NCBI GenBank assembly: GCA_016192905.1
Contig: JACPTG010000001.1
Span: 357,005 to 421,004 of the forward strand
Direction: 5' to 3'
DNA: 64,000 nucleotides
From: Candidatus Woesearchaeota archaeon
GTDB taxonomy: Archaea > Nanobdellota > Nanobdellia > Woesearchaeales > UBA10216
The position numbers and the translations under genes are program-made. Below the pieces are notes generated by a model that saw only the letters and a program-made list of their open reading frames with translations, searched no databases and was not told where the DNA came from. How positions within the stretch are numbered: position 1 is the first letter of the stretch; every line of letters starts with the position of its first letter. Positions 10,348-61,306 of the stretch are shown here, piece after piece.

Positions 10348-10406
10348 TGGAAGAAAGAGTAGAGGAAGCTTCCGGAACAGCCCGGCACAACCACAAACCA
10401 CACTGG

Positions 10407-14344: not shown

Positions 14345-14447
14345 GGGGCTGTGGTGTAACTTGGCTATCACACAAGGTTTGGGACACAAATTGGGAACAA
14401 TTGTGTCAGAAGACCTTGTGATCGGGGTTCAAATCCTCGCAGCCCCA
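14345..14447 (+). tRNA. tRNA-Pro (anticodon UGG) with ~30-nt intron in anticodon loop
   Basis: Acceptor GGGGCTG/CAGCCCC. T-arm CGGGG-TTCAAAT-CCTCG. Anticodon stem CAAGG..CCTTG with loop TTTGGG[intron containing GACACAA..TTGTGTC helix]A. Discriminator A. Confidence 0.6.
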
Positions 14448-44114: not shown

Positions 44115-47100
44115 TTAGTTGCCTTCCTTCTTTCCCTTGGAAACAAAGTACACGACCACTCCAAGGACAGCTATAACAACAATGGAGATGGCTATAAGGT
44201 TCAGGAGCGGAATTCCTGCGACGTTCTGCAGGTTTGGAAGCAGGGAAGGCTGGGCAGATTCGTTTGACAGCTCACCTGAAGGCCCTCCAGACGCAGACTC
44301 ATTAGTCTCCACAACGGCTCCTGTCGGGCCTGCGGTAGTCTCATTCGCAGCAGCAGCCGGACTTGACCTGGCAGCGACCGCGAAAACGCTGAAGCCAGGC
44401 GTTGAAGCCTCATAGTTGACATTTATCGTATCCTCACTGAGTATCTTGGTTGAAAGCTCATTCCACTTGCCCCCGTTGTGCCTGTAAAGGGCAACGTTAT
44501 CCTTCACAAGGCTGTTTGAAGCCAGCCACTTCTTCCCCACACTGAACTGCATCGTGACGGTCTTAACAGAAGATATCGGGAGGTTTGATGTATCAAACTG
44601 CAGGTACTGGTAAACAGTGCCGGGCGCAACGCCTGTGGCTGAAGGAGCGCCGGTAAGCTTGGTCACATCAACCGTAACCGAAGCTGCGACAGTGCCTGTC
44701 TCAATGATAACCTTCCTCACGGCAAAGTCAGACTTGACAATATTCATGACATTCGCGCCAATAGGCAGCTCAGCCCAAACCTTGCTGACCTTCGTGGCAG
44801 CCGCATCCTGATTACCAGGTCCGGCACCACCGCCACTGCTGCTTCCACCGCTGCTACTGCTGCTGGAGCTGGATGAGGAACTGGTTGAGAAGTTAAGCGG
44901 GCCTGTGGTGTTGCAGTTGCCAGCCACGTCACATGAAGTCACGTTGATGTAATAAGCCGTTGATGCAGAAAGGCTGTTTACTGTAACCCTATGACCCTCA
45001 CTATAAGCAGTATCAGTCGTATTCGCAGTAAATGTTGCTGAGGCAATGCCATGGGCAACAGAAGAGTTAGCCCTTTCGTGCGTTGTCCAGGTAATGACTG
45101 CTGAGGTAGTGCTCACAGAAGCTGAAGGCGTCTGGTTGAACACAGGCTTCTCAGTGTCATTAACCCTTAATGTCCTCAAGGCGCTGGTACCCACCTCATT
45201 GCTCTCGCTGTTCAGGCAGCTTATGTTATAGGAATAGGTTCCATTCTGGGGAGTTGAATTCACAATGAACGCGCTCAGGGTGTCATTAACAACAGTGCCA
45301 TTCACAAGCGAAGTTCCGTTAATCCTGAGCGTGCAGGACTGGTTTGAGTCGTTAAGCGTCAGCAGCTTAAACTGAATCCTGGCGTTCTGGACCTGGGAAA
45401 GATTAGAATCCTCTGTAGTGATGTTGATGGTGTCAAACCAGACGTCATCCTTCCAGGAAGACACCCACCCGCTGTTATTGGTGACTGTGAAATTAAAGGT
45501 CACGAAATCAGCCACAGGAACAGACATGTTCACAACAACCCTGAACTGGTGGACTGTCTCGTTCAGCTTTCCTGAATTGACAATCGTGAAGTTATAGTTG
45601 GAAATGTTCGACTCATTGTTCATCGCAACAGGAACCCACTGCGTTAGGTTGCTCAGGTTCAAATAGCTGATATTATAAGATGTGCGGGAAGAAGTGTCAT
45701 TAACCTTCACAGTAAGATTAAGGATTTGCGAATAATTGGTCTGATAATTGGTGACGTTCCAGTACACTGTGCAACCCGGGTAACACTGGTAGACTGTGCG
45801 GTCAGAGCGGAACTCCACTCCAGTGCTGTTCACGCCGTACGCCGAGAAGCCGCCGAGGCCATAAGTTGGAATCCTGACTGTAGTGTAATTTGAGCCCTGC
45901 TTAATCACAGTAATGTTGCCGCTCACATCCACGCAGCCCGAGCCGTTGATGTCACACTTGATAATCCGGTTGCCCACCTGTGAGATGTTTATCACCACAG
46001 AATCAATGCCCAGAATCTGGGCCATCTCCTGCCACTTAGTGCCATTCATGCCCACAAGCATCCTTGCATCTGTTGGCCTGCTGGGAGTTGACTCGTTAAC
46101 CTGAGTGTACTGAATCATGTCAGTCATGTTGATGGATGTTGCCTTGGCGATGTCAACGCCCTCAAACAGGATGTTCCAGCCCAATGTAGAGCCATTAAAA
46201 GAGGCATTGGGATTATCAAACCTCATGGTGGTATTAGAGATGTAGCTGATGTTCCTGATTGAGAAATGTATATACTCAGAGCCGTTGAAATAAGTAAGGT
46301 TAAGCCCGGACATTGACGGGCTGCCCTTGGGGTCAAACAGGATGCCGAAGTTGAAATTAGATGAGCCGCTGGTCTTGGTGGTGAAGTTCAAACAGGCGCT
46401 GGTGGCGCAGTTGCCTGACAGGTCGCAGTTCTTTGTCCTGTAGTAATAAGTCGTGTTTGCCCTTAAAGGAGTGACGCCGGCGGCTGAAATTGAAGTGTTG
46501 TCAAAATTCAGGGAGTGCCACGGCCTGTACCGGTCACTCTCAAAGAGGGCGTCAGTAAGGTTGGCAACAGGAACTGTGCACGCACTTGAAGTATTGTAAA
46601 ACTCCAGCGAAAGGTTTGACAGCTCGCTGGTGCTCTGCCTGAGCATGGCAAACCTGTCAAACTCATCAACTATATTGCTCATAACCCTGGGAGCCGTCTT
46701 GTCATTGGCCAAAAGCGCGGATCTGTTAGCCGAACACCACGGAGCCTGCGCGCAGTCAGCGTCAGCGCAGTTCGCATTTCCATCCTGGTCCTCATCAGGA
46801 GAGCCCTGAGCACAGTCTTCAAAGGGCGTGAACTTGCCGCCGCCAAGCTTGGCAAAGGCAGTGCCGCAGGCCATCGGATTGGACTCGCAGTTCGGCGGGA
46901 TAAACTCCACAGAGCCAGGGGTATAGGTGGCATTAAACAGAGTGTCGTTGGACATGTTCGGAATGGCTGTAAGGTTATCCACAGTGGCCAAATGGTAAAC
47001 AATTGAGTCCTTGGGGTTGCCAATGTCAGACAGCGGAACCACCATTATGGCTGCGCCGAAAGTGCAGATAGGCGTCTGGCTCGGGTTGAAGGGGTTTGTC

Positions 47101-49091: not shown

Positions 49092-49120
49092 AGCTGGACA
49101 GAAAATGCCCTGCCTCTTAT

Positions 49121-52100
49121 TTAAAGTTTTCGCTGAAGCCTGACCCGCAGCAGGAAATAAAGGCCTGCGGCAAGAAGGACAGCGACAAGCAGAACCGCGG
49201 CAAGGACAGTGAGGCTGATGCCCTGCTGCTGCGGGGGCTGGCCAGATGGCATCTCCTGGGCAGGGGTTTGGTTGGCGGCAGGATTCTGAAATGACTCCGG
49301 TTCCTCCTCTGGAGTTCTGTTGGAAAGCGGAGCAGGACTTGCAGGCTCAGCCACACCGGCAACGGCAAAATAGGAAAAGCCAGGGCTTGAGGCAGAGAAT
49401 GAGTAAAACGACTGGTTCTCACCTATACCCGATGTAGGCAGCTGATGCCAACTGCCTTCCGAAAGCCTGTAAAGGTAAACCGAGCCAAAGCGGCCTGCAA
49501 AAGAGCTGTTAACCCTGAAATCAATGCTCACAGATGCAAAGTCAGAGTCAGGCAAGGAAGGGGTAGAGGTAAGCCTGAAGTAGGCGTATGAAGCGTGGGA
49601 TGCAAAGGCGCTTTCAATGGCCAAAGGAGGGTCTGTAACCGGCTCAGCCACCAGAGTCAGGGCATCCACGGGCCGGTTGGTGAAGAAGGAAACCAGCGAA
49701 ACAGGCATCTGCGGGCTGCTTACCTTCATAGTGTTAAGCCTGCCAGCGGAAATGCCCGCGAAAACATGGCTTACCTTAGCAGACTGGCTGGGGGTGGTTG
49801 AGCCTCCTCCGCCACCGCCGCCACCGCCGCTTGAGCTGCCGGATGAGCAGGCAAGGTCAACGCCATCACAATTCTGGTCAATGCCATCACCGCAAACCTC
49901 GGTGGCGCCAGGATTAATGCCTGAAGAGGAGTCATGGCAGTCAGTGCCGTTCCCGCAGCCAGAAGCATAAAAGCCGTCAGCATCACTATCAGGGCACTGC
50001 TGCCTGGCTGCGGAAAAGCGAAGCCCAGCAACTTTGAAGTAAGTCGTGTTGCCGGTGCTGTTAACAAGCGAACATGAATAAGAGGAGTTCTGGCCCGGGC
50101 AGCTTATCAAGGTCTCGTTCTGGCCATTGCACGAAACGCTAATGTTGTAAAGGCTTGACACATCAGCGTCCTTCACGCAGACAGTGCCAATGGTGCCATT
50201 CACAGCAAGCAGGCTAACATTCTTGGTAAGGTTGTACTGCAAAGCCAAACCGCGGACAAGGACTGCACCAAAAGTGCTGGCAGCAGGCTGCACCTCATAA
50301 GTGAAGTTAAGGTTAAGCGTGGAATTCGTAAAGTTCCAGAAAAACTCAAGAATGCTCACCGAGCTGTTGGAGACGTTCACAAAGAAAGTCCCGTTAAACC
50401 TCTGCGAAAGGTTGCTGCTGCTGTTCACTGAGATGTTAATAGAGCCTGCAAGCATGTTAGTCACGTTTATGAAGGAATTGTTTGTCCCCAGAAGATAATC
50501 CTCACTGTCGGGGATGCCATCATTGTCGTCATCAGAGTCATAAATGTCGGGGACACCGTCAAGGTCGCTGTCAATCTGGTCAAAAACGGTAATGTTGACC
50601 TGCATTGAAGAAGAGGCATTGCCATCAGTGACATTAACCAGAACTGCGAAAATCCCTGAACTGGCCAGATTCGTCCTCCAGCTGAAGTTGCCGCTTGTGT
50701 TCTGAGCAAACCTTGTGTCGTTGACCGAATAGTTGAAGAAGCCATTGTCAGGGTCTGAGGCTGATACGGTAAAGTTCACCCAGTCAGTTTCATTCACGCT
50801 CATGTTCGCCTGCTGGGCAATTTCAGGCGGGTCGTTCTGCGGGGAAATGTTCACCAGAATTACTTCGGAAATATTGGCTGTCCCGTCCCAAGCGGTGATG
50901 TTCAACGGGACAGTGCCGTTGAAGTTGGAGGCGGGAGTGAAATTCACGGTAGTGTTCTGCCCCTGCGGGACTGCTGCGCCTGTAACATTGAACCGGGAGT
51001 CATTAACATAATACCTGACAGTGTCATTGTCAACATCCGACGCTGAAATGTTAAAGAACAATGCCGCGTCCTCAAGCATGGACTGGTTTGACGGCGAGAA
51101 ATTCCAGTAAAGCACATCATTAACCGGGGTGACGTTAACGAAGACACGCCCGGAAATGTTGACCACGCCGTCGGATGCGGTTATGTTGATGAACACCACG
51201 CCGTTGAAGTTGGAAGCAGGAGTGAAATTAAAAGTCGTATTTACACCCTGCGGGACTGCTGCGCCTGTAACATTGAACCGGGAGTCATTAACATAATACC
51301 TGATTGTGTTATTGTCAAAGTCTGACGCGGAAACGTTGAATACGAGCGAGGAATCCTCCTGAATGGAATAATTCTGCGGGGTGAAATTCCAGAGAGGAGA
51401 GGTGTTGTTCACGTCGAGCCGCCACTCGTAATAAGCCGATGAATTCCAGTCTGAAACCAAAACCGAGACATTATAGCTGCCAAGCGTGGTGTTGGTGAAG
51501 TTGAAAGAGGTACTGTTGAAGAAGGCGGACTGGTTGGAATTGTTAAGGAACCAGGCTATTACGAGCAAATCATTGTGCGCATCCGTATAGTTGAACGAGA
51601 AAGTCTGGTTATTCGGCGAGCTTATCGTGAAGTTCCGGGTTGAGGGGCCGGTTGTGAGGACAGGAGCTGAGTTGTTGCACAGGCTTGAGTTAATGCCGTG
51701 AAGGACAGAAAAGGAATAGCACAACTGCCCCCTATTCGGCGTGCCGTCGCTGAGGTTCGTGTTATTGTCGTCCATTACAAGCAAATCCTCAAGGAACGCG
51801 TTGAAAGTCTGGCTCTGCACCTTCATGGCCCTGATGACAAGGTCATCTGACTTTGTATTGCCAACTCTCAGCCTAAGCTCCCACATCGCGCCTGAAAATG
51901 ACTGGCTGTCAGCATGCACCTGGGTGAATGAAGTCGGCTTCTGCACGCTGTTGTTCAGATTACGAAGGCAGGGAGTGACAGAATCCCACTCATCGGCAAG
52001 GCACGGGTTGCCATTCAGTGTGGCTGCAAAATAATCCGCAAGAGCCTCATTCATCGCGCCCGGCTGGCCTGAAGTCATAGCCGCAGAATAAATCTGGTCA

Positions 52101-53734
52101 ACAGCAGCATGAGTGTACTCGTGATAAACCACATCGCTGCCAAGCGAAGTCGCATTGCAGCCGCCGCCAGCAGGAGTGAAATGCACAGTCCCTGTTGAAG
52201 GCTGATAAAACGCATTGCAGTTGCTGCCAAGCGATGTGTCCTGCACGAGGACGAGCATCTCATAGTTTAACCCTGATACATTAAACGGAGTGCCATTGGT
52301 AAAAAAGTCATGAACCCTGGTGGCGTGGTAAAAGACGTTGGACAGCTCCAGCGAATAGCTCGGGTCAGACCCATTCCAGTTCCAGCTATGAGAGCCGTTT
52401 AATGTTGAGTTGACCTCTGCGGTATGGTTGGCGTCATAGGTTGCAGCGCGGTCAGCAACCCTAATCCATGGACTCCTAAAGTTGGTAATTACGGTGGCGT
52501 TGCCTGAAAAGCCCGAAATGTTATAATGGCCTGTGTAATTCGTGTTTGTGAAGTTGATGAAGGTATCATTTGAATGCGAATAGCCTGCAAGGGACCAGTT
52601 TGAGGTTGAGTTGAAATCCTCTGAAAAAACAATTCCTGAATTCGTTACAATGGATACGTTATCCACAAAAAAGCCGTCCTCAACCACAGAAGTATCATAA
52701 GTTGTGGTGAAGTTAATGTAAACAGACCTGTTAATGTAATTGTTCAGGCTGTAATTCCTAAGAACCCAGCCAAGCTGCCTGCCTGTGAAAGTTTCCAGCG
52801 TCTGCCATGAACTGCCATTAGCGGAAACCCTCGCGTAAGAATAGTCTGAGTTGTTCTCAAGCTCGTACCTGGCCATGAAGGTAATGTTGACATCTGTATA
52901 GCCGGAAAGGTTAATTGAACGATTAGTTCCTGCTGCGCTCACCAGGTTGTTTGCCTTCCCTGAGTAAATTACGGAATTGTTGGAAGGCTGGTAAACCCTG
53001 ACTGTGAGGTTGGTGAAGTTAACCAGGGTGCGGGAATTCTTCCAGTGCTCAGGGTAAACCATTCCTGTGACACGACCGTAAATGTCGCCAAAGACTATGT
53101 TGTTGTACTTCCTGATGATGCCTCCACCATGCGCATCCACGTAATACGCCCAGGCCCCACGCAGCCTCTCGTCAAGCGGCAGCTGGACCTTCCAGGCGAG
53201 GTGATAGCCTGAGTCGGCTGCTGTGACAAGCAAAGTCGTATTAAGCGGAGTGATGCTGACTCCAGCGTCCTGAACTGCCAGCTCAGCAGCCTTTTCAGCT
53301 GAAATCCCTGGAACAGGGTCAAGGCTGATACCCCTCAGGAAGTTGTTATTAACGGTTACAAGCTTATCATCAACGTAAACCAGGACCACAAACCCGTCCT
53401 CAACAGGAACGCCCCTGTAAACCTGCTCGTAAGAGGCGTACCACACGCCGCTCTGATGCCTATACAACGGGCTGTCACGCTCAGCCTGCCTCAAGGCAAG
53501 CGCATCCTCATCAATCTTCAGAAAGCGCTCATTGCGCTCCATAAAGCCCCGGGCAACGCTATCAACATTACCGGCGGTTATGTGCCTGCCAACATCCAGC
53601 GAGCCCACCAGCCTCTCCGGAGCTCCTCCCCTATAATCAACCTTAAAGGCCTGCAGATTATCAGAGCGGCCCGCAGCCAAGGCTACAAAAGCAGAAGCGG
53701 ACATAACAAAAAGAACAGCAAAAAGCCACCTCAT
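49121..53734 (-). CDS. Giant surface metalloprotease (1537 aa): propeptide-like N-terminus, M4 thermolysin-like domain, Ig-like and TSP3-like repeats, PGF-pre-PGF domain, TM anchor
   Basis: VVYHEYTHAAVD..GAMNEALADYF (HExxH + NEAxxD). Tandem ..RYYVNDSRFNVTGAAVPQG.NTT.NFTPASNFNG.. repeats. DSDLDGVPDIYDSDDDNDGIPDSED. ..SPGFSYFAVAG... C-terminal ISLTVLAAVLLVAVLLAAGLYFLL. Confidence 0.75.
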   Translation of the reverse strand: MRWLFAVLFVMSASAFVALAAGRSDNLQAFKVDYRGGAPERLVGSLDVGRHITAGNVDSVARGFMERNERFLKIDEDALALRQAERDSPLYRHQSGVWYASYEQVYRGVPVEDGFVVLVYVDDKLVTVNNNFLRGISLDPVPGISAEKAAELAVQDAGVSITPLNTTLLVTAADSGYHLAWKVQLPLDERLRGAWAYYVDAHGGGIIRKYNNIVFGDIYGRVTGMVYPEHWKNSRTLVNFTNLTVRVYQPSNNSVIYSGKANNLVSAAGTNRSINLSGYTDVNITFMARYELENNSDYSYARVSANGSSWQTLETFTGRQLGWVLRNYSLNNYINRSVYINFTTTYDTSVVEDGFFVDNVSIVTNSGIVFSEDFNSTSNWSLAGYSHSNDTFINFTNTNYTGHYNISGFSGNATVITNFRSPWIRVADRAATYDANHTAEVNSTLNGSHSWNWNGSDPSYSLELSNVFYHATRVHDFFTNGTPFNVSGLNYEMLVLVQDTSLGSNCNAFYQPSTGTVHFTPAGGGCNATSLGSDVVYHEYTHAAVDQIYSAAMTSGQPGAMNEALADYFAATLNGNPCLADEWDSVTPCLRNLNNSVQKPTSFTQVHADSQSFSGAMWELRLRVGNTKSDDLVIRAMKVQSQTFNAFLEDLLVMDDNNTNLSDGTPNRGQLCYSFSVLHGINSSLCNNSAPVLTTGPSTRNFTISSPNNQTFSFNYTDAHNDLLVIAWFLNNSNQSAFFNSTSFNFTNTTLGSYNVSVLVSDWNSSAYYEWRLDVNNTSPLWNFTPQNYSIQEDSSLVFNVSASDFDNNTIRYYVNDSRFNVTGAAVPQGVNTTFNFTPASNFNGVVFINITASDGVVNISGRVFVNVTPVNDVLYWNFSPSNQSMLEDAALFFNISASDVDNDTVRYYVNDSRFNVTGAAVPQGQNTTVNFTPASNFNGTVPLNITAWDGTANISEVILVNISPQNDPPEIAQQANMSVNETDWVNFTVSASDPDNGFFNYSVNDTRFAQNTSGNFSWRTNLASSGIFAVLVNVTDGNASSSMQVNITVFDQIDSDLDGVPDIYDSDDDNDGIPDSEDYLLGTNNSFINVTNMLAGSINISVNSSSNLSQRFNGTFFVNVSNSSVSILEFFWNFTNSTLNLNFTYEVQPAASTFGAVLVRGLALQYNLTKNVSLLAVNGTIGTVCVKDADVSSLYNISVSCNGQNETLISCPGQNSSYSCSLVNSTGNTTYFKVAGLRFSAARQQCPDSDADGFYASGCGNGTDCHDSSSGINPGATEVCGDGIDQNCDGVDLACSSGSSSGGGGGGGGGSTTPSQSAKVSHVFAGISAGRLNTMKVSSPQMPVSLVSFFTNRPVDALTLVAEPVTDPPLAIESAFASHASYAYFRLTSTPSLPDSDFASVSIDFRVNSSFAGRFGSVYLYRLSEGSWHQLPTSGIGENQSFYSFSASSPGFSYFAVAGVAEPASPAPLSNRTPEEEPESFQNPAANQTPAQEMPSGQPPQQQGISLTVLAAVLLVAVLLAAGLYFLLRVRLQRKL

Positions 53735-53969
53735 TCTGACACCTTTGCCAATGCGGAAAAGAAAGCAGGTTAGTAAAGCTTTGCTTTTTTAGTTAGTCGT
53801 TGGAGGTTTGTAGTTTACTCTTCAGTGAACTCCAGACCGCACACTTTACGATTTTCCCGAAGGGGGATGGTGAAACCAAGGAAGGCACAGGCCGCTACAG
53901 TGATAAAGAGAAGAATCAGGAACTAAGCTGACTATGCATCAGCCTATTCCAACAGCCAAAAACACTCCT

Positions 53970-54602
53970 TTATTTCTTCTTCCTAAGCAGGAAGAAAGCA
54001 GCAAGCCCTGCAAGCACAATCACCACAACCACCAGAATCCCTGCGGTGGGAATTCCTGCTGCCGGCTTTTCAGGCGGAGCGGGCTGAGGAGTAACAGGCT
54101 GAGGCTGTGCCGCTGCCTTCTTGCAGTCAGCAGCGCAGCTTGACTCTGACTCATCACCCTCGCATACATTATCCCCACAGGCAATGTTCCTAACAGTAAC
54201 GGACTTCTGGTCGCGGCTCTGGCCTGAAGCATCAAACCACACAGCATCAAAATTAGCTGAGCCAACAGCGCCTGCCACAGCAGTGTACTTAATCTGAGCG
54301 CTTGAGCCTGTTGGCGTAAAGCTCCACCCATGCCTGTTGCCATCAGCAGAGCGGTGGTTAATCTTATCCTTAGACTCCTGCGAGCCTGAAACCTCCCAAG
54401 TGCTGAACTTCCAGTCATCAGGAAGGTCATCCTCAAGCGTGAAAAGCTTGCCAGCCTCTGCGCTGCCAATGCTAAAAGTCACTGTGACTGTCTCGCCAGG
54501 GCTCACCCTGTCCGGAATGCTACGGCTCACAGAAGCGGCAAAGACAGCCGATGAAAGTGCAAGAAGAACAGCAAAAAACATCAAATACCTGAAGGCTTTC
54601 AT
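53970..54602 (-). CDS. Secreted surface protein with C-terminal TM anchor
   Basis: Signal MKAFRYLMFFAVLLALSSAVFAAS. CGDNVCEGDESESSCAADC motif. Pro-rich stalk. ..ILVVVVIVLAGLAAFFLLRKKK. Confidence 0.55.
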   Translation of the reverse strand: MKAFRYLMFFAVLLALSSAVFAASVSRSIPDRVSPGETVTVTFSIGSAEAGKLFTLEDDLPDDWKFSTWEVSGSQESKDKINHRSADGNRHGWSFTPTGSSAQIKYTAVAGAVGSANFDAVWFDASGQSRDQKSVTVRNIACGDNVCEGDESESSCAADCKKAAAQPQPVTPQPAPPEKPAAGIPTAGILVVVVIVLAGLAAFFLLRKKK

Positions 54603-55847
54603 TCAACCACCCGCGTAAAACTTCCTGATTATATCGATAATGTCAAAGGCCGTGTAAGACGACTTGCCTGCATAAAAGCCCCTTATCGCATCAATAATGC
54701 CGAATGCAGTCGTAGGAGCAGCCTTCTGCTCGCCGGTAATCGCAAATGTTGAAAAGCCGGGAACCTCAGCCTCATAATGATAATAATTCGCGTCCTCCTT
54801 CACAAACTTAGTTGGCTGCTTGGTCCATGTGCTGCCAACAAGCTTCTTGAGCGAAACCGTGGTATGGTCAATACTGTTCTGGCTCACCCAACTCTTCGCC
54901 ACCTGGAACTTAACCTTGGCAGACTTAATGTCAGCATCCTTAATATTAGCCTTGGTGATTGTCAGATACTGAAACACTACTTCCTGATTTGGCTTTGGAG
55001 CCACGCCAGAGCCTCCTGAAGCTGAAATCCCTGCTGTTGGAGAGCCAGCCGCAAGCGTGGTCTCCCGCACAGTAATCTGAGGGCCTGTTACGGCAGCTGC
55101 AGTGCTTGAAGTGGTAACCTCTATCGTAGCTATTCCAGTATCAGCAGCCTTGGCAAAGCTGAAGGTAGCGGTTGAATCTGCTGAAACAGTACCTGGAACT
55201 GTTGAGGTCTCTGTAACCGCAGCAGAGCCGGCACCTCCGCCTGAGGAAGTGGATGACGAGGAGCTGCTGGAACTGCTTGAGCTTGAGCCACCGCCACTGC
55301 TGCCGCCACTACTGCTGCTGCTCGAGCTGGCAGAGCAGGCAGAAGCCTGGCAGGTGCCTGCAGTGCCGGAATAAGGAGCTGCCTGCACAATCTCAGTCGC
55401 GCCACTGCAACAGTAGCCGCCAGTGCAAGCCTTTGAGTGGTTGCAGGCTGCGCTGTTGGCTATGGCTGTAAAAGTAAGATTGAACCACTGGCCATAATCA
55501 GGACCTGGATGCCATCCTGTGGAAAAAACCTCTGCGGTAGTGTTATCCGGTGCAGAACCCCAAACCCTAAAAGTAACCGCATCGCCAGTGTTTCCCACAC
55601 CGGTAATCAGGTAATAACCTGAAAAAGGGACATCTGCCGAAGTTGCAGTTGTATTTTTCTTCCAAATGCCATTAACATACATATCAACAACAGTGCCCGG
55701 CTCTGCCGACAGGTTATTCCCTGTGCCATTAGTTATTTTGACAAATCCTCGCCAGGTTCCGGTTTCAGCTGACACAAATGAGGCTAAAATAAGTACAAAA
55801 GCAACGATAGCGACTATCAAACCCGCCTTTCTCATTTTTTCCCCCAA
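54603..55847 (-). CDS. Secreted surface protein with poly-Ser linker, PGF-pre-PGF domain and duplicated C-terminal IID(A/I)IR(G/K)FYAG motif
   Basis: Signal MRKAGLIVAIVAFVLILASFVSA. ..EVPGFSTFAITGE... Ends ..FGIIDAIRGFYAGKSSYTAFDIIDIIRKFYAGG, no C-terminal TM. Confidence 0.6.
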   Translation of the reverse strand: MGEKMRKAGLIVAIVAFVLILASFVSAETGTWRGFVKITNGTGNNLSAEPGTVVDMYVNGIWKKNTTATSADVPFSGYYLITGVGNTGDAVTFRVWGSAPDNTTAEVFSTGWHPGPDYGQWFNLTFTAIANSAACNHSKACTGGYCCSGATEIVQAAPYSGTAGTCQASACSASSSSSSSGGSSGGGSSSSSSSSSSSSTSSGGGAGSAAVTETSTVPGTVSADSTATFSFAKAADTGIATIEVTTSSTAAAVTGPQITVRETTLAAGSPTAGISASGGSGVAPKPNQEVVFQYLTITKANIKDADIKSAKVKFQVAKSWVSQNSIDHTTVSLKKLVGSTWTKQPTKFVKEDANYYHYEAEVPGFSTFAITGEQKAAPTTAFGIIDAIRGFYAGKSSYTAFDIIDIIRKFYAGG

Positions 55848-55863
55848 AAAAAGAAAATGATAA

Positions 55864-58800
55864 TCAGCTCAGCGTCCTGCAGCATAATCTGAACTTTGTG
55901 CTGTTTCCTGTGATGTTCAGCTGATACTGCTTATCATTAGTATTATTAATGTACTTCAGGTCGCTTCCAACCCAATCAGTCCTGCTGAATGTCTTCCAGC
56001 CAGTATCAGTACCATCAGTGTTATAATAAACCACGTTATAGTTGGCACCCAGCCCTCCAATGTTTGTCAATATGAGGGATATATTCCAGTTCTGAGTTGT
56101 GCTTGTGTTCCATCCCCAGGACTGCAGTTGTGATGTCTGATGGATAGTAAGGGCAGGACTTGTCTGTAGGTCAGCACTCTCATACCAAGGCTTAATGTAG
56201 TTCTTGAACCTTGATGTGTTTGCCACAACATTGTTGCCCGCCAGATCCTTCGCTGCAGCCCCATAAAGGGTAATATTCACGCCCACAGAGTCACCCTGCT
56301 GTATCTTCCGCACAGCAGCATCCTGGCCGCTGGTCAGCTTTATGAATATCGTGCTGCTGTTGGCAGGGACAAGGGTTGAATTCCCACCTCCCAGGTTTGC
56401 AACTCCGTCAGCAATGCTTCCATCAGTGTAGTTAAGGCTTACGCTGGTGAGCGTAACGCCTGTAACGTTGCTGTCCATCAGCTCATTAAAGCCAAGCGAA
56501 AGCAGCCTGGAAGACTCATTGTAAGTCCAGTTGGCCAAAATCGGGGCATTAGCGTCAACATGGATTGTGAAGTTTGTGGCATTGAATGCTGTGTTTGAAG
56601 CTGAATCATTGCAGAAGACATTCCACGCATAGTCCCCATCAACCCCGAACGTGAGGCTGAAGTTGTTGTTGCCGCCGGCCCCGCCACCTGACACGCTGAG
56701 GTTCGTGCCATTTGAGACCCAGGCATTGCCGCTTGAAGAGTTGGTGTAAATGCTGCAGTTCTGCGGGTTGGCATCCAGTACGGTATAGTTGAAGGTAACG
56801 GTAGCCCCCCTTCTTGAGTCACTCGAAGGGGCGACGAGCGCAACCCTTGTAACATTGACATCAACTGTGATTGAAAGGTTGCTCAGGTTTGAGTTTCCAG
56901 ACCAGTCAGTGACATTGACTGTGAAGTTAAGCAGGCCCTCAGCATAAGCGCTTACACTCACAGTCACGTTAAAGACCCCGCTCAGGTGAGCACTTCCAGC
57001 AAGCAGCGTGACATTAGTCATCCTGACAGTCGCATTGTAATTGCCTGTAGGCGCTGAACTGTTAATCCAGTAAACACTTACATTCTTGATGCCTGAAGCA
57101 GTGTCATTGGTTGAGATGTTTATGAGCAGGTTGTCATTCTCAAATCCGCCAGTCTGAGCAATAACGAACTTCAGGGTTGGCGCAAGATTATCAACCATTA
57201 TGGATATCTTCTCGGCAGTCTGCTGGTTTCCAGACCAGTCAGTCGCATTGACAGTAATGTTCACCATGCCATTCGCAAACTGGGTTGTGACGACTGTTGA
57301 ATTGAAATAACCAACAGTGCCATTGACTCCATCAGGGTTGCTGACATTGCTCATGGCCATAAGCGGGCCTTTCTGGGTTGTGCCTGCACTCTGGTTCTCC
57401 CAGTACCAGAACACAAACCTTATGCCTGAAACAGTGTCATTCACAGAGGCGTTCAGAAGGAGGACTGAGCCTGACTGGTTAGTCCCGTTAGCAGGAGAGA
57501 CTATTCCCACAGTTGGGGCGGTGCTGTCCACGATAAGCGTAACGTTTGAAAGCGCAGTGTTGCCAGCCCAGTCAGTCGCGTTGACAGTTATGTTTATTGC
57601 GCCTGCGGCAAAGGTGCTGACATCAACCGTAGCGTTGAATGTGCCGTAAGTGTTTGCAGTAACAGCCAAGGCAGTGACATTCGTCATCCTCTGAAGCGGG
57701 CCAGAGCCAGAACCGTTAATCCAATACCACGAAACATTCCTCAGCCTGCTGAAGCTGTCATTCACAGTGAAGTTAAGGACTGTTGTTGAGGTAACGTTAA
57801 TTCCTGTCAGGCTTATCCTTGTAAGGTTTGGAGCGACATTATCAATGGTAACTGATACGTTCGCGCCGGTATCATTTACATTCGCAGCCCAATCAGTGAC
57901 GTTAATGCTGATGAATGTAACGCCATTATCCAAAGTGGAAGGCACAGTTGCATTGAAGTTTCCAATGCTGCCATTAGGAGCAATGGGATTGCTGACATTG
58001 CTCATTCCGGTTGACGGGCCCCTGCTTGCATTAGCCCAGTACCAGAACACATACCTGATGCCTGAACCGGTGTCATTCACTGACGTGTTCAGCAGGAAGC
58101 TGCCTGACAGGTTGGCGCCTGAAACAGGATTAAGTATTGCGATGCTCGCATTCGTCCTGTCAACCCTAATCGTGAAGTTGGTAAGGTTTGCAGCGCCACC
58201 CCAGTCAGTGACATTCACTGTAATGTTCAACAAGCCGTCAGGGAAGCCTAAAGTATCTATAGTATAATTGAAAGTACTGTTCCTGACCGCAGTATCAGCG
58301 CCAACACTTACATTCGTCATCCTCTGAAGCGGGCCAGAGCCAGAACCGTTAATCCAATACCACGAAACATTCCTGACCAGGCTTCCGCCGTCACTTGCCG
58401 TGACATTCAACAGGAATATGTCTGATTGGTTGGATACAGCAATTACGGGCGAGAGTATTGTGCCATTAGGCCTTGTATTGTCAACCAGGACTGTTATATT
58501 CGTGACAGAGTAATTGCTCGTTCCTGCAACGTCTGTCACGTTAACAGTAAGATTCAAAGACGTGCCCTCGGCATAGGCTGAAACGTCCACTGACACTGAA
58601 TAGAAGTTTGTGCCAGCGGTCCTTGACATCGCAGTGGCAGGACCTAAACTTGAGCTGCCATTGGACTCATTCGCCCACTGATAAGTGGCCAGCCCCACTC
58701 CGCCGCCATCATCACTCAAGGTAACATTCAGGGTAATGGTTGCTGACACATTGCCGCCACTGGTCGGGGTGTTGGTCGCGTTGTAAAACGGCGTCTTTGT

Positions 58801-61131
58801 ATCAATAGTGACATTAAGCGGTGTATTCTCAGTCCCATTCGCCGCCCTGAGATTTGGCGTCCCGTCAGTTGCATTGATGATGAACTCAACAACATCGCCA
58901 TGGACAGCTGAAAGCTCAGAGGCAGCAGCAACATTTATGCTGGTGTTGCATATGTAAACAGGAGCGCTTGAGGGGAACAAAGAGCAGTTCATCACCTTAT
59001 TCCTCGTCCATGAGGAGAGACCAGGGGAATACACCCTGTAGAAAATTGTGGCATTCCGGCTAACATTAAAGTTTAGCTCGGTAACATTCACCGACCAAAT
59101 CCTCAGCCCAGTCCTGATGAATGACTGGCTTGCGGGGCTTGCATTGGTGATAATCGGCGGAGACTCGTCTGAAGTTATATTGACAGTAAAGTTTGAGAGC
59201 CTATAGTTTCCTGCCCAGTCGCTTGCATTAATGGTAATGTTGAGGAGGCCGTTGGCGAATGCGGAAGCGTCAATAGTAACGTTGTAGTCACCTGTCTGGC
59301 TGACGCCCTCAGCACTCCAGTCCGCGGACATGTTGCTGAGCAGCTGGTCACCTGTGAACTGCGCCTTGCTTCCTGAACTGTTAATCCAGTACCAAGAAAC
59401 GTTGGCTATGCCTGAGCCTGTATCGTTAACCGAGACATTCACGAAAAAGTAGCCTGTAACATTCCTTGTAATATTCACCTGCCGTACATTAGTCGGGAAA
59501 CGCCTTGACTCATAAGTTATGTTTACAATCCCAGCCACGGTCGGCGCTGTCTTGTCAACCACAAAGGTAAGGTTCTGCAAGACAGTGTTGCCAGCCCAGT
59601 CAGTTGCGTTGATTGTGATATTCTGAAGGCCATCGGCAAAGGCAGAGGCATCAACAGTGGCGTTGTAATGACCCCAGTTGTTTCCTGTGCCAGCGGCATT
59701 TGTAACATTAGTCATTATATTGGAAGGGCCATACCCTGAGCCATTAATCCAATACCAGGTCACGTTCCTAATTCCTGAACTATTGGTTGCAACAGCCCCT
59801 GTCTTGTTGGCCCAGACAGTAAAGTTAACCAGGATTGTGCTGCTGACATTAGTCGTATTGGCAGTGATGAGAGGATTTTGCCTCTGCAGGACAGGAGCCT
59901 TGTTATCAACCAGAAGGGTGATATTGATGCTCGTATTCACATTCGAGGCATTGTCAGTAACGTTTATTGATATATTGACAAGGCCGTCAATCCACGTTGA
60001 TGTGTCAAAGTCAACCCAGTAATGATGGGAAGCAGGCTGCCTTACCATGCTCTCAAACTCTCCTATATTCCTGGATGTGCCTCCAGTGCCATTCACCCAT
60101 GTGGCTGAAGCGTTATACACTCCGCCGCCGTCATCACTGGTGGTAATGTTAAGCGTGAACCTGCCTGACACGTTCAGGACAGTGCCTGCTGTGTTCGGGT
60201 TATCGTAGGCCAAGCTGGCGCCTGACGCTGATTTTGTGAGGTTAACCCTGGTGGAGTTAATAGTCGGGGTCCTGGTGTCCAGAGTCACTGTAAAGACCGG
60301 CGTATTATTGGTCCGGTTCCCGGCGTCAGAGAGGTTGAAATTATACTCAACCACATTTCCATGCGCCCCTGAAAGGCCAAGAACTGCCTGGACATTAACT
60401 TCAAGAGAGCAGTTATGGGCTGCAGTGTGAATGGCCGGGATGAAATTACAACTGGTGGCGTTGGACACGTAAGTGTCGGTTCCCTGCCTCCTGTAATAGA
60501 CAGTAACGTTGTTCGCATTCACCAGGTTATGCTCTGTAACGTTAATAGCGAAGATTACATTAGTCAATGAACTTACGTACGTGGCATTGTTCCAACTCTG
60601 GTTAACAAAAACAGGAGCGTAGCTGTCCACCTGGAACCTCTTGTATGACTGGTTCCGCGACTCATTCACAGTACCGTGCGACGCATTCGCCGCGACCGAG
60701 CAGAACCAATAGAATGCCTCTCCGCGGACAGGACCTATGCCTGAAAGATTAAACTGGACTTTCTTGCCGTTGCCTGAGCCATTGAAAATATTAGTGGCAT
60801 TGGACATGTCACTAACTGTCTGGTTCCTCAGGAATGTGCCAGTCATGTTGGTCCACAACGAAACATTTGTCAGGTTATCCGGACCAAAATTCTCATCAGA
60901 GTCCAACTTCACTTCACAGAAGAGCGAAATTGAATTGTTAGTGCTGTATGATGAGTTTGCAGGCGACTCAACATCAACCGCTGCAAAAATCAAAACTCCA
61001 AAGGCGAGAAGGCTTAAAAGCGATATTACAAGTATAAAAGGCCAGATGCTCCTTACTCCTGCAGACTTAAGATTCCTGAAACTCACAGCCCCAGAAACCA
61101 ACCGTCCACCCCTCTTTTCACCCCAAGGCAT
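55864..61131 (-). CDS. Giant surface protein (1755 aa) built from >10 tandem ~100-aa Ig-like repeats rich in N-glycosylation sequons
   Basis: N-terminal anchor IWPFILVISLLSLLAFGVLIFAAV. Recurring NVSWYWINGSG..MTNV..FNATVD...NITVNATDWAGN modules. Exact 60-bp DNA repeats (57686-57745 / 58312-58371). Confidence 0.8.
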   Translation of the reverse strand: MPWGEKRGGRLVSGAVSFRNLKSAGVRSIWPFILVISLLSLLAFGVLIFAAVDVESPANSSYSTNNSISLFCEVKLDSDENFGPDNLTNVSLWTNMTGTFLRNQTVSDMSNATNIFNGSGNGKKVQFNLSGIGPVRGEAFYWFCSVAANASHGTVNESRNQSYKRFQVDSYAPVFVNQSWNNATYVSSLTNVIFAINVTEHNLVNANNVTVYYRRQGTDTYVSNATSCNFIPAIHTAAHNCSLEVNVQAVLGLSGAHGNVVEYNFNLSDAGNRTNNTPVFTVTLDTRTPTINSTRVNLTKSASGASLAYDNPNTAGTVLNVSGRFTLNITTSDDGGGVYNASATWVNGTGGTSRNIGEFESMVRQPASHHYWVDFDTSTWIDGLVNISINVTDNASNVNTSINITLLVDNKAPVLQRQNPLITANTTNVSSTILVNFTVWANKTGAVATNSSGIRNVTWYWINGSGYGPSNIMTNVTNAAGTGNNWGHYNATVDASAFADGLQNITINATDWAGNTVLQNLTFVVDKTAPTVAGIVNITYESRRFPTNVRQVNITRNVTGYFFVNVSVNDTGSGIANVSWYWINSSGSKAQFTGDQLLSNMSADWSAEGVSQTGDYNVTIDASAFANGLLNITINASDWAGNYRLSNFTVNITSDESPPIITNASPASQSFIRTGLRIWSVNVTELNFNVSRNATIFYRVYSPGLSSWTRNKVMNCSLFPSSAPVYICNTSINVAAASELSAVHGDVVEFIINATDGTPNLRAANGTENTPLNVTIDTKTPFYNATNTPTSGGNVSATITLNVTLSDDGGGVGLATYQWANESNGSSSLGPATAMSRTAGTNFYSVSVDVSAYAEGTSLNLTVNVTDVAGTSNYSVTNITVLVDNTRPNGTILSPVIAVSNQSDIFLLNVTASDGGSLVRNVSWYWINGSGSGPLQRMTNVSVGADTAVRNSTFNYTIDTLGFPDGLLNITVNVTDWGGAANLTNFTIRVDRTNASIAILNPVSGANLSGSFLLNTSVNDTGSGIRYVFWYWANASRGPSTGMSNVSNPIAPNGSIGNFNATVPSTLDNGVTFISINVTDWAANVNDTGANVSVTIDNVAPNLTRISLTGINVTSTTVLNFTVNDSFSRLRNVSWYWINGSGSGPLQRMTNVTALAVTANTYGTFNATVDVSTFAAGAINITVNATDWAGNTALSNVTLIVDSTAPTVGIVSPANGTNQSGSVLLLNASVNDTVSGIRFVFWYWENQSAGTTQKGPLMAMSNVSNPDGVNGTVGYFNSTVVTTQFANGMVNITVNATDWSGNQQTAEKISIMVDNLAPTLKFVIAQTGGFENDNLLINISTNDTASGIKNVSVYWINSSAPTGNYNATVRMTNVTLLAGSAHLSGVFNVTVSVSAYAEGLLNFTVNVTDWSGNSNLSNLSITVDVNVTRVALVAPSSDSRRGATVTFNYTVLDANPQNCSIYTNSSSGNAWVSNGTNLSVSGGGAGGNNNFSLTFGVDGDYAWNVFCNDSASNTAFNATNFTIHVDANAPILANWTYNESSRLLSLGFNELMDSNVTGVTLTSVSLNYTDGSIADGVANLGGGNSTLVPANSSTIFIKLTSGQDAAVRKIQQGDSVGVNITLYGAAAKDLAGNNVVANTSRFKNYIKPWYESADLQTSPALTIHQTSQLQSWGWNTSTTQNWNISLILTNIGGLGANYNVVYYNTDGTDTGWKTFSRTDWVGSDLKYINNTNDKQYQLNITGNSTKFRLCCRTLS

Positions 61132-61306
61132 TATATTTTGGCACCTCTACGAACAGGAAATGACTTGTGCTATCTTCTTTTTTCCAAAATAGATTGGCAC
61201 GCCTCTATTTAAAGCTTTTGGTCAGCCATATCAATGCGGCGATGAACTAAATTAAGCGAACTTCATTAATGATAACTTTTTAATCCAGCCAGCCAAAAAG
61301 CCTGAA

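What the first reader, a model, noticed from the sequence alone, without database searches (positions are those of the whole stretch)
44115..61131. 17-kb surface-protein megalocus: five co-oriented secreted proteins sharing PGF-pre-PGF domains with plain TM anchors
Four of the five products carry the ..(S/V)PGF(S)..FA(V/I).. pre-PGF module. These are 44115-49091, 49121-53734, 54603-55847, and the fifth gene 55864-61131 by repeat architecture. They end in an ordinary hydrophobic helix plus basic tail, or in the 54603-55847 protein in a duplicated amphipathic IIDxIRxFYAG motif. None has a PGF-CTERM sorting signal. All are saturated with N-x-S/T sequons and poly-Ser/Gly or poly-Gly linkers. This likely makes up much of the glycosylated cell envelope and its accessory enzymes.
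Basis: partly seen in the sequence, partly recalled or inferred. Interest (0 to 1): 0.55.

Follow-up and report, generated by a model that had tools for sequence, protein, structure and literature searches.

The report
Archaeal surface-protein locus with plug-and-socket anchor
This is a conserved cluster of five cell-surface protein genes from a tiny (probably Woesearchaeota) archaeon, and its most interesting part is a small surface protein that lacks a membrane anchor and probably plugs a short, previously undescribed two-helix tail into a membrane-anchored "socket" protein encoded by the very next gene.

Summary
The five co-oriented minus-strand genes are real, and the cluster is syntenic in many Woesearchaeota/Nanoarchaeota MAG contigs.

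The PGF-pre-PGF domain (TIGR04213) scores above cut-off in three products, not four:
- present in g1 (44115-49091), g2 (49121-53734) and g4 (54603-55847);
- absent from g5 (55864-61131) and g3 (53970-54602).

No product has a PGF-CTERM signal. C-terminal TM anchors are present in g1, g2 and g3 only. Sequon saturation holds for g1, g2 and g5 only.

New result: the duplicated TAFxIIDxIRxFYAG tail of g4 behaves as a swap-equivalent of a TM anchor.
- Orthologues carry either the tail or a linker+TM+basic end, with at least three independent switches.
- All 12 tail-type loci have a g3 homologue starting -4 to +16 nt after the g4 stop.
- None of 10-11 TM-type loci has the g3 N-domain.
- One orthologue (L014) is fused directly to g3's stalk+TM, having lost both the tail and g3's N-domain.
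- The same tail ends about 64 other protein clusters (45-2740 aa), including subtilases and giant adhesins.
- g3 homologues form at least 113 clusters of uniform single-domain+TM proteins.

Best reading: a non-covalent plug (tail) and socket (g3 beta-sandwich) anchoring system. It is cohesin-dockerin-like in logic but not in sequence. Binding itself is inferred, not shown.

The parts
55864..61131 (-). g5: a 1755-aa giant glycoprotein. It has an N-terminal TM/signal anchor (aa 24-56), about 105-110-aa Ig-like repeats (Big_13/Big_3_3), DUF7743 and a conserved C-terminal domain. It has no pre-PGF domain and no C-terminal anchor. 153 sequons.
   Evidence: A g5-like gene sits upstream of g4 in nearly all related loci.
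54603..55847 (-). g4: a 414-aa secreted adaptor or cargo protein. Order of parts: signal peptide, N-terminal beta domain plus Cys-rich knot, long Ser/Gly linker, pre-PGF domain, tandem two-helix tail. No TM anchor.
54732..55205 (-). PGF-pre-PGF domain of g4 (aa 215-372). The PGFSTFAIT motif forms the last beta-strand of the fold.
   Evidence: 80 bits. AF2 pLDDT is about 95, with strand E367-374.
54606..54719 (-). Tandem docking tail of g4 (aa 377-414): TAFGIIDAIRGFYAG-KSSY-TAFDIIDIIRKFYAGG. It is predicted as two helices (aa 381-392 and 400-412).
53970..54602 (-). g3: a 210-aa membrane-anchored 'socket'. Its ATG directly abuts the g4 stop codon.
54189..54533 (-). g3 N-terminal nine-stranded beta-sandwich domain (aa 24-138), the proposed receptor for the tail.
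   Evidence: AF2 pLDDT is 90-97. Foldseek places cohesins among the nearest folds, but not uniquely. An HMM of this domain hits only the ORF that follows a tail-type g4.
53985..54179 (-). C-terminal half of g3: the invariant CGDxxCExxExxxxCxxDC knot, a Pro-rich stalk, a TM helix and an RKKK end.
   Evidence: This same module is fused directly to g4 in L014.
49121..53734 (-). g2: a 1537-aa surface-anchored zinc metalloprotease. Order of parts: signal peptide, FTP propeptide, InhA-like MAM insert, divergent thermolysin-like (M4) catalytic region (HEYTH...NEALAD, about nt 51815-52342), cadherin-like/Big_9 repeats, MopE motif, poly-Gly linker, pre-PGF (nt 49355-49744), stalk, TM, basic end.
   Evidence: The protease head is swapped for Peptidase_S8 in 7 related loci.
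44115..49091 (-). g1: a 1658-aa Cys-rich (58 Cys) giant glycoprotein. It has acidic double-disulfide repeats, an FN3-like domain, a poly-Ser/Gly linker, pre-PGF (nt 44373-44726), a 48-aa stalk, a TM helix and a KGKKEGN end.
   Evidence: It is 43-70% identical in syntenic loci.
61206..61214 (-). TATA-like box (CTTTAAATA) about 79 nt upstream of the g5 ATG. It is a candidate promoter for a g5-g4-g3 transcription unit.
   Evidence: Read directly from the sequence. Inference only.
53945..53969 (-). Oligo-T stretch directly after the g3 stop codon, within a 235-nt intergenic gap before g2. It is a candidate boundary between two transcription units.
   Evidence: In L003 a PIN/MazE pair is inserted here, and in L029 an IS240 transposase.

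Best explanation
The locus is a conserved surface-display cassette of a DPANN (most likely Woesearchaeota) archaeon. It probably forms two transcription units, g5-g4-g3 and g2-g1.

g1 and g2 are exported. Each is held on the cell by the same C-terminal cassette: Ser/Gly linker, pre-PGF beta-sandwich, about 45-50-aa stalk, TM helix, basic end. Here the 'PGF' motif is the last beta-strand of a folded domain, not an archaeosortase signal.

g2 presents a thermolysin-like protease on a stalk of cadherin-like repeats. g1 and g5 are giant, heavily N-glycosylated adhesin-like proteins.

g4 has the same linker and pre-PGF domain, but the stalk+TM is replaced by a 38-aa tail made of two copies of TAFxIIDxIRxFYAG (two amphipathic helices). 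The proposed mechanism is that this tail plugs non-covalently into the extracellular nine-stranded beta-sandwich of g3. g3 is translationally coupled to g4 and is itself fixed in the membrane by a disulfide knot, a Pro-rich stalk and a TM helix. g4+g3 together would therefore be the two-polypeptide equivalent of a TM-anchored g4.

The same plug ends many unrelated giant surface proteins and proteases in this lineage, so the plug/socket pair looks like a general modular anchoring system.

Shown by computation: domain content, synteny, anchor interchange, co-occurrence, the fusion, and portability of the tail.
Inferred: physical binding of the tail to g3, glycosylation, transcription units, and the biological role (envelope or host attachment).
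For: (1) Anchor interchange. In the alignment of 16 g4 orthologues, 11 end in the tandem motif and 5 end in a Thr/Pro linker+TM+basic tail at the same position. More examples of both types appear.

(2) Strict co-occurrence.
- An HMM of the g3 N-domain was searched against six-frame translations of the window and all loci at E<=10. It hits only the ORF that immediately follows a tail-type g4.
- That holds in 12 of 12 distinct loci: window, L001, L003, L005, L010, L012, L013, L018, L029, L030, L031, L032.
- It hits 0 of 10 TM-type loci that have at least 1.2 kb of downstream sequence: L007, L008, L009, L014, L016, L017, L019, L021, L022, L023.
- The reciprocal test also holds. Starting from g3 homologues P0061 and P0057, a tail-type g4 lies directly upstream.

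(3) The co-occurrence is not just shared ancestry. A rough NJ tree of g4 cores shows at least 3 switches:
- L014 (TM) is sister to L003 (tail).
- L018 (tail plus g3) is nested among TM-type L017/L019/L023.
- L021 (TM) sits next to P0069 (tail).

(4) Rosetta-stone-type fusion. In L014 (56% identical to g4) the pre-PGF end is joined directly to g3's CGxNxCE..C..DC knot, stalk, TM and KKK. Both the tail and the g3 N-domain are lost. L021 is similar.

(5) Coupling. The distance from g4 stop to g3 start is -4 to +16 nt in 12 loci. The terminal Gly-Gly codons of g4 (GGAGG/GGTGG) form an SD-like motif for g3.

(6) Portability of the tail.
- An exhaustive HMMER search with the 39-position tail profile found 72 clusters at E<=1e-3, of which 36 are at E<=1e-10.
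- About 64 of them carry both repeats within the last 36 residues of proteins 45-2740 aa long.
- The cargo includes subtilases (P0112, P0124) and relatives of g1, g2 and g5.
- About 18 have no pre-PGF domain, and none contains a g3 N-domain.
- Two tail-bearing proteins lie on one MAG contig.

(7) The g3 family comprises 113 clusters, all 181-225 aa complete proteins (plus 4 shorter, 85-141 aa) with one domain plus a TM helix.

(8) Structure.
- In the AF2 models the tail helices have pLDDT 81-85 and the g3 domain 90-97, with 9 strands.
- Cohesins are among the best Foldseek hits: A. fulgidus 2xdh, and C. perfringens 2jh2 with TMt 0.66.

(9) Surface nature of the whole locus. Synteny.
Against: - No direct evidence of binding exists. 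The AF2 job returned no coordinates or PAE, so docking of the tail on g3 in the concatenated model could not be inspected.
- The g3 fold match is generic. Pilin, CLIPPER, BslA, YcnI, AgI/II and complement MG domains score as well as cohesins.
- The tail has no sequence similarity to dockerins: hhalign probability 0.06%, and no Pfam, NCBIfam or PDB hit. It also lacks Ca-binding loops.
It rests only on matching contig lengths and sources.
- The loci are not phylogenetically independent, so a 12/12 versus 0/10 split overstates the significance.
- The taxon is uncertain. The nearest MAG (GCA_964504135) is labelled Methanosarcinales, while all other named relatives are Woesearchaeota/Nanoarchaeota.
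Confidence: 0.6

Rival explanations
1. The tandem tail is an in-plane, lipid-binding amphipathic anchor that holds g4 and other cargo directly on the membrane. g3 would then be a co-expressed but separate surface protein.
For: The helices are amphipathic (muH 0.44-0.62 over the 12-residue cores). The tail replaces a TM helix in orthologues.
Against: It does not explain three observations. The g3 N-domain is present exactly when the tail is present and absent otherwise, through at least 3 independent switches. The L014 fusion dropped the tail and the g3 N-domain together while keeping g3's TM. And the tail lies directly after the pre-PGF domain with no stalk, whereas TM-type relatives need a 45-50-aa stalk to reach the membrane.
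Confidence: 0.12
2. The tail is a C-terminal sorting or processing signal, analogous to PGF-CTERM, PEP-CTERM or T9SS CTD. An unidentified enzyme or secretion system would recognise it, possibly attaching cargo covalently (to g3 or to lipid).
For: It sits at the extreme C-terminus of many unrelated exported proteins. That is the hallmark of sorting signals. NCBIfam holds many lineage-specific -CTERM signals.
Against: It lacks the TM+basic tripartite structure of all sortase/exosortase/archaeosortase signals. No sorting-signal model matches it. No candidate processing enzyme is conserved in the locus. The partner that does co-vary is a small beta-sandwich protein, not an enzyme.
Confidence: 0.1
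3. The tail is a self-association (helical bundle) module that oligomerises cargo. g3 is an independent stalk or pedestal subunit of the same lattice, so g4/g3 would be the S-layer pair of this lineage.
For: It is a short helix-loop-helix with a conserved hydrophobic stripe. SlaA/SlaB-type S-layers are encoded by adjacent, co-transcribed genes, with the stalk subunit TM-anchored (PMC5744192).
Against: Self-association alone does not replace a membrane anchor. The tail occurs on proteases and on very different giants, which is not expected for lattice subunits. The L014 fusion argues for a tail-to-g3 link.
Confidence: 0.1
4. One reading: five paralogous pre-PGF envelope proteins simply anchored by ordinary TM helices, with the g4 tail an idiosyncratic variant.
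For: Three products carry pre-PGF. g1, g2 and g3 have a TM+basic end.
Against: g5 and g3 lack pre-PGF. g5 and g4 lack a C-terminal TM. The tail is conserved and widespread, not idiosyncratic.
Confidence: 0.05

Closest known systems
Cohesin-dockerin modules (cellulosomal and non-cellulosomal, including those of Archaeoglobus fulgidus and ANME archaea)
   Same: - A short C-terminal module made of two tandem helix-containing repeats sits on diverse exported cargo.
- Its proposed partner is a roughly 115-140-aa nine-stranded beta-sandwich on a cell-anchored protein.
- Cargo and receptor modules lie on separate polypeptides.
- Cohesins are among the best structural matches of g3.
   Different: - No sequence similarity.
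- The repeat period is 19 aa rather than about 22, and there is no DxNxDG calcium loop.
- The receptor always has one domain plus its own TM helix, with no multi-cohesin scaffoldin among 113 clusters.
- The receptor gene is translationally coupled to one cargo gene.
SlaA/SlaB two-component S-layer anchoring in Sulfolobales
   Same: The genes are adjacent and co-transcribed. An outer protein without a TM helix is held non-covalently by a beta-sandwich stalk protein that has a C-terminal TM helix (PMC5744192, PMC6098224).
   Different: There is no homology. g3 is much smaller and has no coiled coil. The plug is portable across many cargo families. No evidence exists that g4 forms a lattice.
PGF-CTERM / archaeosortase A substrates
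   Same: Both are archaeal exported glycoproteins with a PGF motif near the C-terminus. The pre-PGF domain was named for its resemblance to the start of PGF-CTERM.
   Different: Here PGF is the last strand of a folded domain. It is separated from the TM helix by 45-50 residues, or is followed by the helical tail. The PGF-CTERM model does not match, and the larger window ORFs that were scanned show no ArtA.
PGF-pre-PGF domain proteins (TIGR04213/IPR026453) of Methanosarcinales and ANME
   Same: g1, g2 and g4 are bona fide members by HMM score. NCBI already names close relatives 'PGF-pre-PGF domain-containing protein'.
   Different: The lineage differs (Woesearchaeota/Nanoarchaeota). The alternative tail ending and its g3 partner are not part of the described family.
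Thermolysin (M4) and InhA-like surface metalloproteases
   Same: g2 has HExxH...NEAxxD aligned to B. cereus neutral protease (E 7.6e-6). It also has an FTP propeptide and an InhA-like MAM domain.
   Different: The Pfam M4 models score below cut-off. The catalytic head is embedded in a 1537-aa anchored stalk and is exchanged for a subtilase head in sister loci.

Membership tests
PGF-pre-PGF domain (TIGR04213) | HMM score above the curated cut-off (28 bits) | tested here: met
   g1 scores 77.4, g2 40.3 and g4 80.3 bits. g5 and g3 give no hit, so membership holds for three of the five products.
PGF-CTERM / ArtA substrate (TIGR04126) | C-terminal tripartite signal: a PGF motif immediately followed by a TM helix and a basic tail | tested here: not met
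   No PGF-CTERM hit on any C-terminal fragment at E<=10. PGF lies 45-55 aa upstream of the TM helix in g1 and g2. g4 has no TM helix.
PGF-CTERM / ArtA substrate (TIGR04126) | Archaeosortase A encoded in the genome | not testable with these tools
   Only 64 kb of the genome is available. No exosortase- or archaeosortase-like ORF was found among the larger window ORFs that were scanned.
Dockerin (PF00404) | Two tandem duplicated segments, each with a helix, at the end of an exported cargo protein | tested here: met
   Two 15-aa repeats spaced 19 aa apart, with helices at aa 381-392 and 400-412, at the extreme C-terminus.
Dockerin (PF00404) | EF-hand-like Ca-binding loop (DxNxDGxxxxxD) in each repeat, plus sequence-profile similarity | tested here: not met
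   No such loop is present in the sequence. There is no Pfam hit at E<=10. The PDB profile search returned only a Troponin C chance hit at E 2.2. hhalign against the CelS dockerin gives probability 0.06%.
Cohesin (PF00963) | Nine-stranded beta-sandwich fold specifically resembling cohesins | tested here: inconclusive
   The model has nine strands. Hits to 2xdh, 2jh2, 2w1n, 1qzn and 3fnk have E 7e-6 to 3e-4 and TMt 0.40-0.66. Pilin, CLIPPER, BslA, YcnI and MG domains score equally well. There is no cohesin Pfam hit.
Cohesin-dockerin system | Physical binding of the module pair | not testable with these tools
   No coordinates or PAE were returned.
SlaA/SlaB-type two-component anchoring | Adjacent co-transcribed genes, with the anchor subunit having beta-sandwich domain(s) and a C-terminal TM helix | tested here: met
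   The gap is -4 to +16 nt in 12 loci. g3 architecture is shown. Homology to SlaB was not tested, and lattice formation is not testable.
Peptidase M4 (thermolysin) for g2 | HExxH plus a downstream NEAxxD glutamate ligand, and profile similarity | tested here: inconclusive
   The motifs are present and align to 1npc (E 7.6e-6) and thermolysin (E 9e-4). Pfam M4 and M4_C score below cut-off (14.8 and 17.2 bits). FTP scores 21.5 bits against a cut-off of 21.

The most novel reading that the evidence does not exclude
Woesearchaeota and related DPANN archaea may use a lineage-wide, independently evolved plug-and-socket surface display system. One family of small TM-anchored beta-sandwich 'socket' proteins (g3, at least 113 clusters) would hold many different giant glycoprotein adhesins and proteases. 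Attachment would be through a 38-aa tandem-helix 'plug' that is freely exchanged with ordinary TM anchors. The system would be functionally equivalent to cohesin-dockerin but unrelated in sequence and calcium-independent. It could underlie how these episymbionts arm and remodel the surface they use to contact hosts.
Probability: 0.45. Interest if true: 0.75.

Novelty: new variant of a known kind. Interest (0 to 1): 0.62.

Why it matters
DPANN archaea are ultra-small and mostly uncultured, and are thought to live attached to host cells. Almost nothing is known about how their envelopes are built (reviews PMC6098224 and PMC5744192 say so explicitly).

If confirmed, a portable plug paired with a dedicated membrane socket would give three things:
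- a rule for predicting which giant 'hypothetical' proteins are displayed on the cell although they lack any anchor;
- a small, testable protein-protein pair (a 38-aa peptide plus a roughly 115-aa domain) from uncultured organisms;
- a second, independently evolved solution to modular non-covalent surface display, possibly useful as an orthogonal docking pair.

The locus also shows an always-present surface protease whose catalytic class is swapped (M4 versus S8). That points to a conserved need for proteolysis at this surface.

Tried and rejected
- Pre-PGF in g5: rejected.
- A variant sorting signal in the g1, g2 or g3 tails: only non-specific TM matches appeared. Loki-CTERM scored 15.6 bits, below its cut-off. 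An LPXTG_anchor match (18.1 bits, above its 15.9 cut-off) covered only the TM/basic part of the model, not the LPXTG motif.
- Dockerin homology of the tail: rejected by sequence.
- MoxR-VWA-metallophosphoesterase (41351-44074) as part of the operon: unlikely. It has its own TTTATAAA box 25 nt before the GTG and is not consistently adjacent in relatives. L005 has HATPase_c there, and L010, L013 and L032 have only the phosphoesterase on the opposite strand.
- Stop-codon read-through producing a g4-g3 fusion: g4 and g3 are in frame in the window, but the frames differ in other loci, so rejected.
- scFv 'hits' of g2 in the PDB: a poly-Gly linker artefact.

Technical dead ends:
- the exact-sequence look-up of g4 found nothing;
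- alignments were too divergent for locus scans;
- an unpaired tail+g3 alignment misaligned, so it was not used;
- the viral-contig pattern scan was empty;
- g5 self-BLAST gave nothing, so the repeats were mapped by regex instead.
Full report
**1. What is there**

The region holds five ORFs on the minus strand at exactly the reported coordinates. In transcription order they are:

| Gene | Coordinates | Length |
|---|---|---|
| g5 | 55864-61131 | 1755 aa |
| g4 | 54603-55847 | 414 aa |
| g3 | 53970-54602 | 210 aa |
| g2 | 49121-53734 | 1537 aa |
| g1 | 44115-49091 | 1658 aa |

The gaps between them are 16, 0, 235 and 29 nt. All five products start with a hydrophobic signal or anchor.

The window is archaeal. 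It encodes aIF5B/IF-2 and Trm1. It also carries an intron-containing tRNA that Rfam finds and ARAGORN misses. Named relatives of g4 and g3 are almost all 'Candidatus Woesearchaeota' or 'Nanoarchaeota'. The closest MAG (g4 90%, g3 96% identical) carries a Methanosarcinales label. I regard that label as doubtful but could not resolve it.

**2. Checking the observation**

Pre-PGF domain:
- NCBIfam places TIGR04213 PGF_pre_PGF above its cut-off in g1, g2 and g4 only.
- A lineage-specific pre-PGF HMM built from g4 orthologues finds the same three genes and nothing else in the six-frame window at E<=1.

g5 is instead a chain of roughly 105-110-aa Ig-like repeats (Big_13/Big_3_3, DUF7743). It has an N-terminal TM segment and no C-terminal anchor.

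Anchors and sorting signals:
- No PGF-CTERM or other sorting-signal model matches any C-terminal fragment at E<=10.
- A TM helix plus basic end is present in g1, g2 and g3, but not in g4 or g5.

Sequon density:
- g1 has 82 sequons, g2 has 101 and g5 has 153. That is 5-8.7 per 100 aa, against 0.46 in 26 other ORFs of the window, and about 3x composition-matched shuffles.
- g3 has none and g4 has six.

Ser/Gly or poly-Gly linkers lie directly before the pre-PGF domain in g1, g2 and g4.

The absence of PGF-CTERM is normal for this domain. In Methanosarcinales/ANME genomes, pre-PGF copies (7-24) far exceed PGF-CTERM copies (1-9) (PMC5244752). In the AF2 model the PGFSTFAIT motif is the final beta-strand of a confidently folded domain (pLDDT about 95). 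It is structural, not a cleavage signal.

**3. The locus is a conserved cassette**

Exact-protein look-ups and locus scans returned 32 loci.
- In the closer relatives the order g5-like / g4 / g3 / protease / g1-like is kept. DUF192 and an amino-acid permease lie upstream, as in the window.
- The unit can be split between g3 and g2. L003 has a PIN/MazE pair there, and L029 has an IS240 transposase.
- The window has an oligo-T run after g3 and a TATA-like box before g5.
- I therefore infer two transcription units.
- The downstream MoxR-VWA-phosphoesterase genes have their own strong TATA box and are not consistently linked.

**4. The protease slot**

g2 is a divergent thermolysin-like zinc protease.
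- Its HEYTH...NEALAD motifs align to B. cereus neutral protease (E 7.6e-6) and to thermolysin.
- It has an FTP propeptide and an InhA-like MAM insert.
- Cadherin-like/Big_9 repeats, MopE, pre-PGF and a TM helix follow.

In seven related loci the gene at this position has a homologous C-terminal half but a Peptidase_S8 head. A surface protease is thus always present, but its catalytic class has been swapped.

**5. The g4 tail and g3**

This is the new part.

*Anchor interchange.* g4 orthologues are alignable up to the end of the pre-PGF domain. After that they diverge into two types. One type ends in two copies of TAFxIIDxIRxFYAG. The other ends in a Thr/Pro-rich linker, a TM helix and a basic end.

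*Co-occurrence.*
- An HMM of the g3 N-terminal domain hits only the ORF that immediately follows a tail-type g4. This holds in 12 of 12 distinct loci.
- It hits nothing in 10 TM-type loci with adequate downstream sequence.
- Starting from g3 homologues instead, a tail-type g4 is found directly upstream.

*Independence from ancestry.* A rough NJ tree of g4 cores shows at least three independent switches of anchor type, and g3 tracks the tail each time.
- L018 is a diverged tail-type with its own diverged g3, nested among TM-type genes.
- L014 is a TM-type nested among tail-types.

*The L014 fusion.* In L014 the pre-PGF end is fused directly to the C-terminal half of g3 (the invariant Cys knot, the Pro-rich stalk, the TM helix and KKK). 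Both the tail and the g3 N-domain are gone. That is what one expects if the tail and the g3 N-domain are a binding pair made redundant by covalent fusion.

*Coupling.* The g4 stop and the g3 start are -4 to +16 nt apart. The terminal Gly-Gly codons form a GGAGG/GGTGG Shine-Dalgarno-like motif.

**6. The tail is portable**

An exhaustive HMMER search of 1.84 billion representatives with the 39-position tail profile found 72 clusters at E<=1e-3 (36 at E<=1e-10).
- About 64 have both repeats within the last 36 residues.
- The proteins range from 45 to 2740 aa.
- They include subtilases (P0112, P0124), relatives of g1, of the g2 stalk and of g5, and several small families.
- About 18 lack a pre-PGF domain, so the tail works independently of it.
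- None contains a g3 N-domain.
- Two tail proteins lie 13 accession numbers apart (numbers that usually follow gene order) on one MAG contig.

A profile search with the g3 N-domain found 113 clusters. All but four shorter ones are 181-225 aa with one domain plus a TM helix, and those that carry a source name are annotated 'hypothetical'. Three of them share contig length and sources with non-g4 tail proteins. That suggests the same adjacency, but I could not fetch the contigs.

**7. Structure and relation to known modules**

- AF2 on a g4+g3 concatenation, and on g3 alone, gives confident models of the pre-PGF domain and of the g3 domain (nine strands, pLDDT 90-97). The tail appears as two helices with pLDDT 81-85.
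- No coordinates were available, so docking could not be inspected.
- Foldseek against the PDB returns cohesins among the best matches for g3 (A. fulgidus 2xdh, C. perfringens 2jh2/2w1n, type II cohesins).
- Other Ig-like sandwiches score equally well. The fold is therefore compatible with a cohesin-like receptor but not diagnostic.
- The tail is not a dockerin by sequence. It gives no Pfam, NCBIfam or PDB profile hit.
- hhalign against the CelS dockerin gives probability 0.06%, and there are no calcium loops.

Functionally, the nearest archaeal precedent is SlaA held by the TM-anchored SlaB. Those two proteins are encoded by adjacent, co-transcribed genes (PMC5744192; PMC6098224).

**8. Interpretation and limits**

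I conclude that the megalocus is a conserved surface-display cassette.
- g1 and g2 use a linker/pre-PGF/stalk/TM cassette.
- g4 uses the same cassette with the stalk+TM replaced by a plug that most likely binds the g3 socket.

Binding, glycosylation, the transcription units and the biological role (envelope scaffold versus host attachment and proteolysis) are all inferred.

Rival readings of the tail are a lipid-binding helix, a sorting signal, or an oligomerisation module. Each fails to explain the joint gain and loss of the tail and the g3 N-domain, or the L014 fusion. None of them is excluded experimentally.

Noticed in passing
window 14345-14447 (+): Rfam finds a tRNA here (48.9 bits, 103 nt, so probably intron-containing). 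ARAGORN missed it in bacterial mode. This fits an archaeal origin.
   Followed up: no
window 8934-9947 (+) and 10347-11579 (+): Two neighbouring ORFs have Peptidase_M23 / peptidoglycan-endopeptidase-like domains in an archaeon. They might be used against bacterial cell walls. The surrounding 8-20 kb has a markedly high AT skew.
   Followed up: no
window 41351-44074 (-): A MoxR-type AAA+ ATPase, a VWA protein and a calcineurin-like phosphoesterase have overlapping reading frames directly downstream of g1. A strong TTTATAAA box lies 25 nt before the MoxR GTG. The phosphoesterase recurs next to g1 homologues in L010, L013 and L032, but on the opposite strand.
   Followed up: partly
L005, L010, L013, L029, L030, L031, L032 (the gene after g3) versus window g2, L003, L012, L014: The catalytic head of the protease at the g2 position is either a subtilase (S8) or a thermolysin-like metalloprotease. 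The C-terminal stalk and anchor are homologous in both. This is a class swap at a fixed locus position.
   Followed up: partly
L014:561-2174: A 537-aa natural fusion of the g4 core with g3's Cys knot, stalk and TM helix. It also carries an extra roughly 120-aa sequon-rich insert between the N-domain and the Ser/Gly linker.
   Followed up: partly
L003:11929-12534 and L029:7965-8459: Mobile or selfish elements sit precisely between g3 and the protease gene: a PIN/MazE toxin-antitoxin pair in L003 and an IS240-family transposase in L029. They mark a boundary between two units of the cassette.
   Followed up: no
g4 stop / g3 start in 12 loci (e.g. window 54600-54612): The conserved C-terminal Ala-Gly-Gly codons of the tail (GCAGGAGGATAA, GGTGGTTGA) double as a Shine-Dalgarno-like GGAGG/GGTGG for g3. 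Many unrelated tail-bearing proteins also end in ...FYGG, which hints that they too are followed by a coupled gene.
   Followed up: partly
P0119 (229 aa): An atypical protein with two internal tail-like repeats (AFGIIDDIRAGY, AFEILDDIRAGY) and its own C-terminal TM+KKK. It may be a different use of the same helix motif.
   Followed up: no
L011 / GCA_964504135.1 contig CAZDCW010000003.1: The MAG closest to the window (g3 96%, permease 95% identical) is titled 'uncultured Methanosarcinales archaeon'. All other named relatives are Woesearchaeota/Nanoarchaeota. This may be a mislabelled or mis-binned assembly.
   Followed up: no
window 6590-8206 (-) and 63085-63936 (-): Two further probable envelope proteins lie outside the locus. 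One is a 538-aa ORF with N- and C-terminal hydrophobic segments and a weak MG2-like match. The other is a 283-aa three-TM ORF with 9 sequons.
   Followed up: no
g1 aa 449-482 (window ~47646-47747, -): The acidic double-disulfide repeat (NF033662, below cut-off) also matches the Teneurin-4 fragment 7plp (E 2.5e-5). It is a small Cys-rich, probably Ca-binding, motif shared with eukaryotic adhesion proteins.
   Followed up: no
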